Below, one piece after another: positions 28,101 to 31,100 of a DNA stretch of 64,000 bases. The DNA comes from Mizuhopecten yessoensis (Eukaryota). The stretch is taken from NCBI RefSeq assembly GCF_002113885.1, contig NW_018408494.1, positions 319,316-383,315 on the forward strand, written 5' to 3'. How positions within the stretch are numbered: the first letter of the stretch is position 1; the number at the start of each line of letters is the position of its first letter. The position numbers are program-made.

Positions 28101-31100
28101 TAACGTAACGGTTATGATACACTTACGTGTCAGAGAAGTGGGAGGTGTTAACGTAACGGTTATGATACACTTACGTGTCAGAGAAGTGGGAGGTGTTAAC
28201 GTAACGGTTATGATACACTTACGTGTCAGAGAAGTGGGAGGTGTTAACGTAACGGTTATGATACACTTACGTGTCAGAGAAGTGGGAGGTGTTAACGTAA
28301 CGGTTATGATACACTTACGTGTCAGAGAAGTGGGAGGTGTTAACGTAACGGTTATGATACACTTACGTGTCAGAGAAGTGGGAGGTGTTAACGTAACGGT
28401 TATGATACACTTACGTGTCAGAGAAGTGGGAGGTGTTAACGTAACGGTTATGATACACTTACGTGTCAGAGAAGTGGGAGGTGTTAACGTAACGGTTATG
28501 ATACACTTACGTGTCAGAGAAGTGGGAGGTGTTAACGTAACGGTTATGATACACTTACGTGTCAGAGAAGTGGGAGGTGTTAACGTAACGGTTATGATAC
28601 ACTTACGTGTCAGAGAAGTGGGAGGTGTTAACGTAACGGTTATGATACACTTACGTGTCAGAGAAGTGGGAGGTGTTAACGTAACGGTTATGATACACTT
28701 ACGTGTCAGAGAAGTGGGAGGTGTTAACGTTCGTTATGATACACTTACGTGTCAGAGAAGTGGGAGGTGTTAACGTAATAGATTCCTGGTCTCGATCCAT
28801 CGTTTGTACCAGCCATGTAGAACCCCACAGGTGCTGAGCTCATAGAGGCAGGAGCGGCTGTAATCCTGTTTAAAACATTCAACACTTCAATAATAGAGAA
28901 GTTGTGTTGTAAAGTTTAGCAGCTATGCAAGATTGAGACTCTGTTAGGAATGTAACAATACAAAATCTATCAAATTATTGATGTATTGTGTAAATAGTTG
29001 CCTCAGTAGAAATACATTGATAGTATACTTTATTATTTAACAGACATAATAAATCAATATAGGTGCAATAAGAATGAATATTTCTGATCAACCCATCTTC
29101 AAACTTTCCTCAATTTTTTTATCCATGAAGTTTAATTTTACATGAATTGACAGTTTTCTGATCAGAGTCAGATTTAATCTATTAATTTTCAAATAATTTT
29201 AACTTTTCATTTAAATTTTTAATAAAGAAAACAAGAAACATCAGCATTTGGCAAAACAGGTGTTGGCCAACTGTTAATGACGAGTTTGACCTTAGTAACA
29301 GGTTCAATTTTTATTTATGACCTTGACCTTTAATAAGTATCAGGGTCAATTGTTACCAATGACCTTGACCTTAGTACTGTAGTCATTGACTGGTTACTGA
29401 AGACCTTTATCGTTGTATTTAAGTCATGATATTTTAATTCAATGATATCAATATATGATGACCTTGACCTCTACAGATGCACTCATGATGTTACTTACTT
29501 CATATCAACATCGGGGATAGTTTTGAACAGCTTGGAGAGTTTGGGTCGGATTTTATTTGTACAGATATCTTTAATTCCAGCCAAAAGATCTTCCTGAATT
29601 AAAGATAAAGAATTGTAGCTGTTGTAAACATCAAAGATAGGTTACAGACCACAAACTATACTGCTACTTACAACGAAGAAATAAACACTACACAGCTCCA
29701 ATCATGTTTGCTTGGTTAAAACTAATGGTAAAAATAATATTGAAATAAAACTTTCAAGTGATATATTTTCTGATATTCATTAATGTCCCTATAATTAGAC
29801 TGCATTTATGGGTTTTATAGCCTGAATAAGCACAGACTTCTTAATGGGTTCACACTAAAACAAAATCTGTATCACAAGGAAATCTGTTGAACATATTTCA
29901 TTGCATGTATATATTTATTTTCAGTAAACATTTTAATAATTGGGGCATGTTAATAAACAGCAAAATATTGCAGTCAATTTTAAATAAAGGATCATAATTT
30001 GCAAATGAATTACCTCAGTTTGATAGTATAACTCCTTGTTGTCTTTGGCATGTCTTAGGAAGCGTTGTATATTTGACCCCAGTCCTTCCTCTTTTGCTAT
30101 TTGTTCCATGGCTTTTGTAATTCTTTCAACCTCTTGTAGACCAAGGTTGTGGACCTCTTGAGGTGTCAGATTTGTTGATGTATGGAACATTAGACACTGT
30201 TGGTAATATCTTTGGCCGTTAGGAAGGGTACAACACCCTATACTGGGTCTCGTCCTCCTCATATACACCTGCATATACAGGTAAACAAAATGTTAGACAC
30301 GGTTGGTGGTAGTTATAGTAGTGTGGGAGGGTACAACACCCTATACTGAGTCTCGTCCTCCTCATACACACCTGTATATACAGGTAAACAAAATGTTAGA
30401 CACTGCTGTGGTAGTTTTAGCAGTGAGGGAGGGTACAACACCCTATACTGGGTCTCGTCCTCCTCATATACACCTGCATATACAGGGGAACAAAATGTTA
30501 GACACTCCTGTGGTAGTTATAGTAGTGAGGGAGGGTACACCACCCTATACTGGGTCTCGTCCTCCTAATATACACCTGTATATACAGGGGAACAAAATGT
30601 TAGACACTCCTGTGGTAGTTATAGTAGTGAGGGAGGGTACAACACCCTATACTGGGTCTCGTCGTCCTCATACACACCTGTATATACAGGTGAACAAAAT
30701 GTTAGACACTGCTGTGGTAGTTATAGTAGTGAGGGAGGGTACACCACCCTATACTGGGTCTCGTCCTCCTCATATACACCTGTATATACAGGGGAACAAA
30801 ATGTTAGACACTGCTGTGGTAGTTATAGTAGTGAGGGAGGGTACAACACCCTATACTGGGTTTCGTCTTCCTAATATACACCTGTATATACAAGTAAACA
30901 AAATAGTATACAGCTCTGCAAGTAGTTACAGCAGTGAGGGAGTGTACAACACCTGTAGTTATCAACTTCTATATAAGGATAGCAACAAAAGTTAAATTAC
31001 TTACAGACATAAGATAATCCCGAAGATCAATAAAAGCAGGGATGACAGTATCCTCTAGTACAGATATAGCTTCTTTCTCCAACTCGGCCCTAAAGATAAA

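What the first reader, a model, noticed from the sequence alone, without database searches (positions are those of the whole stretch)
30226..30905. 102-bp acceptor array at DUF885 exon 8 creates tandem AG|GT sites
Six upstream decoy acceptors precede the real one (30269/30268). Because exon 8 begins GTG, each unit reads cAG|GTGT, the AG-GT geometry of recursive-splicing sites and of intron gain by tandem duplication, though the regenerated donor is weak. Read-through from a decoy meets GTC TAA. The array fills most of a 736-nt intron, so the donor of exon 7 must skip six nearer acceptors.
Basis: partly seen in the sequence, partly recalled or inferred. Interest (0 to 1): 0.68.

Follow-up and report, generated by a model that had tools for sequence, protein, structure and literature searches.

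The report
Scallop minisatellite repeating a splice acceptor
A 102-base tandem repeat in a scallop gene has copied the end of an intron plus the start of the next exon six extra times; this is a known curiosity (a "mirage" minisatellite), seen here in a mollusc, and probably not a recursive-splicing device.

Summary
A 102-bp array (30221-30953, 7.2 copies, 92% matches) lies on the minus strand across the intron 7/exon 8 boundary of a DUF885 gene. The annotated Mizuhopecten yessoensis protein LOC110460232 maps onto the window at 608 of 608 residues. Each unit carries a pyrimidine tract, CAG and the first 47 nt of exon 8. Five of the six decoys and the authentic site also carry a CTAAC branch-like motif. 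The six decoy acceptors look as good as the authentic one.

All six decoys run into a premature stop: GTC TAA in 4 of 6, another TAA in the other 2. The donor that recursive splicing would regenerate matches the consensus at 3-4 of 9 positions. The 25 authentic donors in the window match at 6-8 of 9, and the intron is only 736 nt. Exon 7 shows no similarity to the unit. Neither recursive splicing nor intron birth is supported.

The structure matches a described class: "mirage" minisatellites that span exon-intron boundaries (amphioxus Adh3, TnC, globins, PGBD5; human F7 IVS7). The window holds two more, both on the donor side. One is 48 bp x 58 at exon 10 of the same gene. The other is 47 bp x 7 in the neighbouring LRRC34-like gene. 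Verdict: a new member of a known kind, and a useful natural test of splice-site choice.

The parts
31005..31089 (-). Coding exon 7 of the DUF885 gene (85 nt). It ends in phase 0 with TCT, followed by the donor GTAAGT (GT at 31004-31003).
   Evidence: Exact per-exon mapping of P0001; splice contexts.
30969..30994 (-). Degenerate remnant of a unit tail (TAAC, pyrimidine run, TATAG) starting 11 nt into the intron. It is probably an older, decayed copy.
   Evidence: Local alignment to the unit: score 20; 3 of 500 shuffles reach it.
30221..30953 (-). The 102-bp minisatellite, 7.2 copies. It spans the intron 7/exon 8 boundary and reaches 48 nt into exon 8.
   Evidence: TRF; core motif 7 of 7 matches inside the array.
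30372..30883 (-). Span holding the six decoy acceptors, with AG at 30883/2, 30781/0, 30679/8, 30577/6, 30475/4 and 30373/2. Five of the six have CTAAC at -28. All have 11-12 pyrimidines of 17 at -20..-4.
30269..30296 (-). Authentic 3' splice-site module: CTAAC at 30296-30292, the pyrimidine tract, and AG at 30270-30269.
   Evidence: The Pfam DUF885 match starts at the first codon after this AG. The P0001 and P0002 proteins read straight across the junction.
30014..30268 (-). Coding exon 8 (255 nt, 85 codons). It begins GTG and contains the conserved LPNG..YY segment of DUF885.
30190..30204 (-). A 15-nt stretch of exon 8 (+65..+79) that matches the native intron tail (30293-30307) at 14 of 15 positions, in register and 103 nt apart. 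It is either the true 3' limit of the founding duplication or the short direct repeat that seeded it.
   Evidence: 0 of 500 shuffles reach the score.
30219..30806 (-). Span holding the in-frame stops met after use of a decoy: TAA at 30806-04, 30704-02, 30602-00 and 30500-498 (inside the CTAAC motif), at 30419-17, and at 30221-19.
26005..28778 (-). Second boundary-spanning array in the same gene: 48 bp x 57.8, 99% matches. It starts 30 nt inside exon 10 (28865-28749) and repeats the donor CAC|GTAAGT 58 times.
46345..46691 (-). Third boundary-spanning array: 47 bp x 7.4. It starts 32 nt inside exon 5 (46788-46660) of the neighbouring LRRC34-like gene and repeats ATG|GTAAGT. Of 7 sites, 5 are intact.

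Best explanation
This is a 'mirage'-type minisatellite. A segment of about 102-103 nt was tandemly duplicated and then amplified, probably by slippage or unequal exchange. The segment held the 3' end of intron 7 (branch-like CTAAC, pyrimidine tract, CAG) and the first 47 nt of exon 8, possibly up to 79 nt.

Only the copy that is contiguous with the rest of exon 8 can give a DUF885 protein, so that copy is the authentic acceptor. The six upstream copies are intact-looking decoys stranded in the intron. The array has lengthened the intron from about 123 to 736 nt.

I take the array to have no dedicated function. The most likely way the gene still works has two parts, both inferred. First, the acceptor nearest to the exon-8 donor is favoured by cross-exon (exon-definition) pairing. 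Second, any transcript spliced to a decoy carries a premature stop and is lost to nonsense-mediated decay.

Shown here: the array, its content, the equivalence of decoy and real sites, the stops, the weak regenerated donor, and collinearity of the annotated junction with homologues. Inferred: the mechanism of origin, the basis of site choice, and decay of decoy-spliced RNA.
For: - Array and register.
- Local origin. The unit contains genuine coding sequence. The first 47 nt after every AG differ from exon 8 at 16 of 282 positions. Six of those are one shared CTT>CTC change. The other 10 are private and all non-synonymous, so the copies are not under coding constraint. The unit occurs nowhere else in the window.
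- Authentic junction. P0001 maps at 608 of 608 residues in 17 exons and reads ..DYLMS|VYMRR... The Ylistrum balloti orthologue P0002 has the same junction with no insert. The Pfam DUF885 match begins at the first codon of exon 8 (profile 199-281, E 6e-18). The alignment to the solved bacterial homologue 3o0y_A crosses the junction with a single one-residue gap.
- Decoy quality. Decoys have 11-12 pyrimidines of 17, the real site 11 of 17, and 23 other authentic acceptors average 11.1. CTAAC sits at -28 in 5 of 6 decoys and in the real site.
- All 6 decoys lead to premature stops.
- Edge decay and mosaic variants typical of minisatellites.
- Same architecture in the literature. In amphioxus globin BflGb6 the units hold the 3' end of an intron plus the 5' part of exon 2, with 3-6 units at 81-100% identity and normal splicing by RT-PCR (PMC3087553, passages).
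- Two donor-side arrays in the same window have the same logic, and in each the exon-adjacent site is the annotated one. In all three arrays the annotated choice gives the shortest exon.
Against: - No RNA evidence could be examined. The authentic junction rests on an NCBI gene model and on protein conservation. A gene predictor would pick the frame-preserving site whatever the real usage is.
- Nothing in the sequence distinguishes the real acceptor from the decoys, so exon definition is an inference.
- Predicted RNA structure gives the real site no accessibility advantage. Its AG has unpaired probability 0.00, against 0.96 and 0.93 for the two bases of decoy 1's AG.
- Homology between unit and exon is uneven: about 98% at +1..+47, about 55% at +48..+64 (my own column count, made by eye from the sequences printed), and 14 of 15 at +65..+79. 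A simple single duplication does not explain this.
- Copy number comes from an assembly that has N gaps nearby and could not be checked.
- Three boundary-spanning arrays of 12 intragenic arrays is not a significant excess over random seeding (1.23 expected, P = 0.11). The recurrence says nothing about a special mechanism.
Confidence: 0.78

Rival explanations
1. Tuning by unproductive splicing. A measurable share of transcripts is spliced to decoy acceptors, acquires a stop and is degraded, so the copy number of the array (a likely VNTR) sets the output of the gene.
For: The decoys are as good as the real site by sequence, and all six give premature stops. The introduction of PMC1557585 reports that in human IFI6-16 and CBS the two pseudo-sites nearest the authentic donor are used as well as the authentic one.
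Against: No RNA data were available. For amphioxus mirages and for F7, LMNB2 and PDGF, only the authentic site is reported as used. No sign of selection on the decoys could be tested.
Confidence: 0.12
2. Recursive (stepwise) splicing. Exon 7 is spliced to a decoy AG, the GT that follows becomes a new donor, and the intron is removed unit by unit.
For: AG|GT juxtaposition at all six decoys. Two decoys regenerate GTGTGT, which has G at +5.
Against: The regenerated donors match at 3 of 9 (four decoys) or 4 of 9 (two decoys). The 25 authentic donors match at 6-8 of 9, and none combines a non-G at -1 with a non-G at +5. The intron is 736 nt, whereas ratchet points are described as lying predominantly in long introns, with ratchet-point donors generally stronger than those of their recursive exons (PMC8605326 Introduction). 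The GT is simply the first codon (GTG, Val) of a duplicated exon.
Confidence: 0.04
3. Intron birth. Intron 7 itself was created by tandem duplication of coding sequence containing AG|GT (Rogers model, as re-enacted for ATP2A1).
For: Apart from its first 10 nt, almost the whole intron is unit-like. The unit contains exon sequence. Ebner et al. propose mirages as a route to new introns.
Against: Exon 7 has no similarity to the unit (439 of 500 shuffles score at least as high). Exon 7 ends TCT, not AG. The donor GTAAGT lies outside the array. In the model, both splice sites derive from copies of one exonic AGGT (PMC3265369, passages).
Confidence: 0.05
4. Assembly artefact. The array, or its copy number, is produced by mis-assembly of a repeat.
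For: The window has N runs at 32106-32766 and 33589-34070. Nearby arrays are 99-100% identical, where copy number is hard to assemble.
Against: The units differ at 11 of 102 columns in a mosaic pattern, and one unit has 103 nt. That gives unique anchors and is not what a collapse or an expansion produces. The same architecture occurs three times independently.
Confidence: 0.04

Closest known systems
Amphioxus 'mirage' minisatellites (Adh3, TnC, globins BflGb6 and BflGb9, PGBD5)
   Same: These are tandem repeats whose unit spans an exon-intron boundary and so reiterates a splice site. BflGb6 is the exact counterpart: 3' end of an intron plus 5' part of the next exon, 3-6 units, 81-100% identity, array edges excluded from homogenisation, regular splicing retained (PMC3087553, passages; PMC3902484, one passage).
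   Different: The host is a mollusc, not a cephalochordate. The unit is 102 bp rather than 150-160 bp. Length polymorphism, somatic instability and RNA evidence were not available here. The founding paper (Canestro 2002) is not held and is known to me only through citations. The supplementary alignments of Ebner et al. were not seen.
Human F7 IVS7 37-bp VNTR and similar donor-side minisatellites (IFI6-16, CBS, LMNB2, PDGF)
   Same: The first monomer spans the boundary, so identical pseudo-sites follow the authentic donor. Normally the exon-adjacent site is used (PMC1557585: abstract, Introduction and Discussion). This directly matches the 48-bp and 47-bp donor arrays in this window.
   Different: The finding is on the acceptor side, and the authentic site is the last of seven. 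The 5'-to-3' scanning proposed for F7 would pick the wrong end. The scallop donors (GTAAGT) fit the consensus far better than F7's GTGGGT.
Recursive splice sites / ratchet points (Drosophila Ubx, kuz, Bx; human long introns)
   Same: An acceptor and a GT are juxtaposed at one phosphodiester bond.
   Different: The regenerated donor is weak (3-4 of 9), the intron is short (736 nt), and the GT is the start of a duplicated exon. Conservation and intermediates are not testable here.
Intron gain by tandem duplication of an exonic AGGT (Rogers model; vertebrate ATP2A1; potato RdRp)
   Same: A tandem duplication contains AG|GT, and the redundant copies are removed by splicing (PMC3265369: abstract and passages; PMC4974935: search listing only).
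   Different: Here the AG is already intronic, the donor is outside the repeat, and the upstream exon is unrelated to the unit. The event lengthened an intron rather than creating one.

Membership tests
Mirage minisatellite (tandem repeat spanning an exon-intron boundary) | Head-to-tail array of minisatellite-sized units | tested here: met
   Period 102, 7.2 copies, 92% matches.
Mirage minisatellite (tandem repeat spanning an exon-intron boundary) | The unit holds both intronic and exonic sequence, with the splice signal between them | tested here: met
   Each unit holds 55 nt of intron tail ending CAG plus 47 nt equal to the start of exon 8 (16 differences in 282 nt). The array reaches 48 nt into exon 8.
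Mirage minisatellite (tandem repeat spanning an exon-intron boundary) | The authentic site is the copy at the array edge that is contiguous with the rest of the exon; the other copies lie in the intron | tested here: met
   Exact mapping of P0001; Pfam start at the first codon of exon 8; P0002 junction; 3o0y_A alignment.
Mirage minisatellite (tandem repeat spanning an exon-intron boundary) | Regular splicing is not disturbed (RT-PCR in the described cases) | not testable with these tools
   There is only indirect support from the annotated protein model. No transcript data were accessible.
Mirage minisatellite (tandem repeat spanning an exon-intron boundary) | Length polymorphism or instability of the array | not testable with these tools
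   Only a single assembly sequence is available. No eukaryotic genome collection was available.
Recursive splice site (ratchet point) | Juxtaposed acceptor and donor (AG|GT) | tested here: met
   Six in-register CAG|GTGT sites.
Recursive splice site (ratchet point) | A strong regenerated donor, competitive with ordinary donors | tested here: not met
   3 of 9 (four decoys) or 4 of 9 (two decoys) matches to CAG|GTAAGT, against 6-8 of 9 in 25 authentic donors. The criterion comes from the Introduction of PMC8605326.
Recursive splice site (ratchet point) | Location in a long intron | tested here: not met
   The intron is 736 nt. The paper's two examples are about 31 kb and about 73 kb.
Recursive splice site (ratchet point) | Splicing intermediates (sawtooth pattern, lariats, junction reads) | not testable with these tools
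   No RNA data.
Intron created by tandem duplication of exonic AGGT | Donor and acceptor derive from two copies of the same exonic segment, so the end of the upstream exon resembles the end of the intron | tested here: not met
   Exon 7 against the unit: score 12, and 439 of 500 shuffles score at least as high. Exon 7 ends TCT, and the donor is 51 nt outside the array.
Intron created by tandem duplication of exonic AGGT | The intron is absent at this position in relatives that lack the duplication | not testable with these tools
   No genomic sequence of other molluscs was accessible.
DUF885 (PF05960) host gene | Significant match to the Pfam profile and to solved homologues | tested here: met
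   Exon 8 alone gives E 6.1e-18 and 66 bits against a cut-off of 32.4. P0001 against 3o0y_A gives E 1.3e-62.

The most novel reading that the evidence does not exclude
Splice-site-spanning minisatellites may be a recurrent, tolerated class in scallop genomes, as they are in amphioxus. This window holds three in two adjacent genes: 7 acceptors, 58 near-perfect donors and 7 donors. In every case the annotated site is the one that gives the shortest exon, which is the last acceptor or the first donor. If RNA data confirm this, the loci are a natural experiment showing that site choice in a lophotrochozoan follows a position rule across the exon, not intron scanning and not site strength. Array length could then set gene output through decoy use and decay.
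Probability: 0.3. Interest if true: 0.55.

Novelty: new member of a known kind. Interest (0 to 1): 0.38.

Why it matters
Arrays of identical splice sites are rare natural experiments on how the spliceosome chooses among equivalent sites. Donor-side cases (human F7) led to a 5'-to-3' scanning model. An acceptor-side array in which the last of seven equal sites must be chosen cannot be explained that way and points to cross-exon definition.

The same scallop gene also carries a donor array of 58 copies. One transcript could therefore test both directions at once.

My searches found boundary-spanning 'mirage' arrays described only in amphioxus and in a few human genes, and none in bivalves. This window extends the class to molluscs.

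For annotation, such arrays are traps. Each decoy is a plausible splice site, and 102 and 48 are both multiples of three.

Tried and rejected
- Recursive splicing. Rejected on donor strength and intron length.
- Intron birth by AGGT duplication. Rejected because exon 7 is unrelated to the unit and the donor lies outside the array.
- RNA structure masking the decoys. The 821-nt region folds somewhat better than shuffles (z = -2.87; 0 of 20 shuffles fold as well). This is because a 14-nt palindrome spans each AG|G (7 copies at up to 1 mismatch). In the partition function the real acceptor is as paired as the decoys: AG unpaired 0.00, against 0.96/0.93 for d1, 0.45 for d4 and at most 0.09 for the rest. 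Structure gives no basis for the choice of site.
- Transposon or dispersed-repeat origin. The unit core occurs only inside the array (7 of 7 matches) and contains conserved coding sequence.
- Known RNA family in the intron. The only Rfam match at gathering score in the whole window is a tRNA at 58395-58467.
- Enrichment of arrays at exon boundaries. 3 of 12 intragenic arrays span a boundary, against 1.23 expected; P(>=3) = 0.11, not significant.
- The inverted-repeat tool reported only one palindrome. The motif search was needed to see all seven.
- Literature on scallop or bivalve boundary-spanning minisatellites. Nothing relevant. The abalone TSSK1-like paper describes an ordinary 27-bp intronic minisatellite (passages).
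- Canestro 2002 could not be read.
- Two literature calls failed on term syntax and were replaced. One script stopped on an error after printing most of its output and was completed.
- Not done: related genomic sequence. Intron length and array presence in other pectinids therefore stayed unchecked.
Window exons were searched one at a time. Full-length work used the database proteins P0001 and P0003 as returned.
- The N runs were left as they are.
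Full report
**What is there**

On the minus strand, a 102-bp tandem array occupies 30221-30953: 7.2 copies, 92% matches, no indels by TRF. A 51-nt core of the unit is found 7 times at up to 3 mismatches, only inside the array, and never in 100 shuffles.

CAG|GTGT recurs in register seven times. The AG lies at 30883/2, 30781/0, 30679/8, 30577/6, 30475/4, 30373/2 and 30270/69. Spacing is 102 nt five times, then 103 nt. An eighth AG|GTGT, out of register, marks the 5' edge of the array at 30954/3.

**The host gene**

The window is from the Yesso scallop.
- Exon 8 alone retrieved Mizuhopecten yessoensis LOC110460232 (P0001, 608 aa, Pfam DUF885) and its Ylistrum balloti orthologue (P0002).
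- All 608 residues of P0001 map exactly onto the minus strand in 17 coding exons, from 37436 to 20803.
- Exon 7 is 31089-31005 and ends TCT|GTAAGT. Exon 8 is 30268-30014. The intron is 736 nt, and 685 nt of it is array.
- The Pfam DUF885 match of the exon-8 reading frame starts at its ninth residue, the Val encoded by the GTG right after the AG at 30270/69 (profile 199-281, E 6.1e-18).
- Both scallop proteins read ..DYL(M/T)S|VYMRRTRPSIGCCTLPNG.. with no insertion.
- The alignment of P0001 to the solved bacterial homologue 3o0y_A (E 1.3e-62) crosses the junction with one single-residue gap.

I built and searched no joined model of my own. Window exons were searched singly.

**Anatomy of a unit**

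Each unit is a complete 3' splice-site module followed by the start of the exon.
- Branch-like motif. CTAAC sits at -28..-24, which would put the branch A at -25. It is present in 5 of 6 decoys and in the real site, and absent from the decayed 5'-most copy.
- Pyrimidine tract. Decoys have 11-12 pyrimidines of 17 at -20..-4. The real site has 11 of 17. The 23 other authentic acceptors of the two mapped genes average 11.1, range 7-14.
- CAG, then 47 nt that equal the start of exon 8.

In those 47 nt the six copies differ from the exon at 16 of 282 positions. Six are one shared CTT>CTC change. The other ten are private and all non-synonymous, so the copies are not kept as coding sequence.

A 14-nt palindrome spans every AG|G (7 copies at up to 1 mismatch).

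The five 102-nt units are 94-98 of 102 identical to each other. Their variants are shared in a mosaic, non-tree-like pattern, as expected for exchange between units.

**Limits of the array**

Homology with exon 8 fades after +47 but returns at +65..+79. There, 14 of 15 bases match the native intron tail exactly 103 nt upstream; 0 of 500 shuffles reach that score. There are two possible readings, and I cannot decide between them:
- The founding duplication covered the last 24 nt of the intron plus 79 nt of exon (103 nt), and a 17-nt patch was later overwritten. In that case the CTAAC motif descends from the codons TGT CTA ATG of the exon.
- A pre-existing 15-nt direct repeat seeded slippage.

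At the other end, the first 50 nt of the intron still resemble a unit tail (3 of 500 shuffles reach the score). Exon 7 does not resemble the unit (439 of 500 do). Without the six extra units the intron would be about 123 nt.

**What decoy use would do**

Because 102 is a multiple of three, a decoy would add 34 codons per unit if the frame stayed open. It does not.
- Four decoys stop at GTC TAA after 25 codons. That TAA lies inside the CTAAC motif.
- One stops at TGC TAA after 18 codons.
- The unit next to the exon, shifted by its extra base, stops at TCC TAA inside exon 8 after 50 codons.

**Recursive splicing**

After joining exon 7 to a decoy, the new donor would be TCT|GTGTAT (four decoys) or TCT|GTGTGT (two decoys). 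These match CAG|GTAAGT at 3 and 4 of 9 positions. The 25 authentic donors of the two genes match at 6-8 of 9, mean 6.76. By my reading of the donor contexts listed there and, each of the 25 has G at -1 or G at +5.

The Introduction of Joseph et al. 2021 (PMC8605326) describes ratchet points as lying predominantly in long introns. Its two examples are about 31 kb and about 73 kb. It says ratchet-point donors are generally stronger than those of the associated recursive exons, and that the motifs are ultraconserved. Apart from the bare AG|GT juxtaposition, the features testable here (donor strength, intron length) are not met. The GT is simply the Val codon that begins a duplicated exon.

**Intron birth**

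In the Rogers model, as re-enacted for ATP2A1 (PMC3265369, abstract and passages), donor and acceptor come from two copies of one exonic AGGT. Here the AG is intronic. The donor lies 51 nt outside the array. Exon 7 ends TCT and is unrelated to the unit. The event lengthened an intron; it did not make one.

**What it is**

The literature has a name for this. Ebner et al. [quoted passage not shown] The globin gene BflGb6 is the same architecture as here:
- its units hold the 3' end of an intron plus the 5' part of exon 2;
- it has 3-6 units at 81-100% identity;
- the array edges escape homogenisation;
- RT-PCR shows regular splicing.

The term comes from Canestro et al. 2002 on Adh3. I could not read that paper. 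Pavelitz et al. 2013 (PMC3902484, one passage) add TnC and PGBD5.

On the donor side, Borensztajn et al. 2006 (PMC1557585; abstract, Introduction, Discussion) analyse the human F7 IVS7 37-bp VNTR and list IFI6-16, CBS, LMNB2 and PDGF. In F7 only the most upstream of the identical donors is used.

My searches found no bivalve example. That is not proof that none is in print. Supplementary files, including Ebner's unit alignments, were closed.

**Two more in the same window**

1. A 48-bp array, 57.8 copies at 99% matches (26005-28778). It starts 30 nt inside exon 10 of the same gene and repeats the donor 58 times: 55 copies read GTAAGTGTA and 3 read GTAAGGGTA. Read-through of the first donor stops at once at ACG TAA.
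2. A 47-bp array, 7.4 copies (46345-46691). It starts 32 nt inside exon 5 of the neighbouring LRRC34-like gene. P0003 and P0004 map to 53841-41156, and the exon ends ..DLGDTDM|GTAAGT. There are 7 sites, 5 intact, and read-through stops after 4 codons.

In both, the annotated donor is the first one.

Three of the 12 arrays inside these two genes span a boundary. A null model places one unit-sized seed at random in the array-collapsed genes. It expects 1.23, with P(>=3) = 0.11. The recurrence therefore shows tolerance, not targeting.

**How it most likely works**

By sequence the decoys are equivalent to the real site. Predicted structure does not single the real site out either: its AG has unpaired probability 0.00, against 0.96 and 0.93 for the two bases of decoy 1's AG.

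What does differ is position. In all three arrays the annotated site is the one closest to the partner site across the exon: the last acceptor, or the first donor. That fits exon definition. It does not fit 5'-to-3' scanning of the intron, which would take the first acceptor. I therefore infer two things:
- cross-exon pairing with the exon 8 donor at 30013 selects the nearest acceptor;
- decoy-spliced RNA is removed by nonsense-mediated decay.

Both steps are inference. No transcript data could be examined, and a gene predictor would choose the frame-preserving site regardless of real usage.

**Verdict**

The recursion and intron-gain readings are not supported. The feature is a new (molluscan, acceptor-side) member of a known kind. 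It is of moderate interest as a natural test of splice-site choice, more so together with the 58-copy donor array in the same gene.

Noticed in passing
window 26005-28778 (minus strand; exon 10 of the DUF885 gene is 28865-28749): A 48-bp x 57.8 array at 99% identity starts 30 nt inside exon 10 and repeats the near-consensus donor CAC|GTAAGT 58 times. Read-through of the first donor hits TAA immediately. This is a donor-side 'mirage' in the same gene.
   Followed up: yes
window 46345-46691 (minus strand; LRRC34-like exon 5 is 46788-46660): A 47-bp x 7.4 array starts 32 nt inside the exon and repeats ATG|GTAAGT. Of 7 sites, 5 are intact, one reads GTAAAT and one GGAAGT.
   Followed up: yes
window 46815-46921 and 48504-48638: Two further arrays (49 bp x 2.2; 27 bp x 5) end 27 and 29 nt upstream of the acceptors of LRRC34-like exons 5 and 4. 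They are close to the branch-point region but do not span the boundary.
   Followed up: no
window 35086-35191: A 29-bp x 3.7 array (73% matches) lies about 30 nt downstream of the donor of DUF885 exon 4.
   Followed up: no
window 30268-30894 (seven sites): A 14-nt perfect or near-perfect palindrome spans every AG|G of the array. It could favour hairpins or slippage during replication, and it makes all the acceptors pair with each other in RNA folding.
   Followed up: partly
window 52797-52811 (minus strand): LRRC34-like isoforms X1 and X2 (430 and 425 aa) differ by a 15-nt micro-exon (5 codons) that is present only in X1.
   Followed up: no
window 46941-47421: A 32-bp x 15 array at 100% identity sits in the same intron as the 49-bp array. 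Perfect identity makes its copy number sensitive to assembly.
   Followed up: no
window 55430-57517 (+) and 58395-58467 (+): A run of long plus-strand ORFs looks, from recall only, like a non-LTR reverse transcriptase; it was not scanned against Pfam. A tRNA match (31.4 bits, gathering score 29) lies nearby.
   Followed up: no
window 32106-32766 and 33589-34070: Two N runs lie in intron 5 of the DUF885 gene. The sequence bordering them is repeated: similar translated stretches occur on both sides of the gaps. The gaps were left unfilled.
   Followed up: no
whole window: Minisatellites are very dense. TRF at score >= 100 gives 32 rows, which I grouped into about 17 distinct arrays, several of 1-3 kb (6013-8737, 42355-44110, 50133-51315, 62679-63911). 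Window G+C is 35%.
   Followed up: partly
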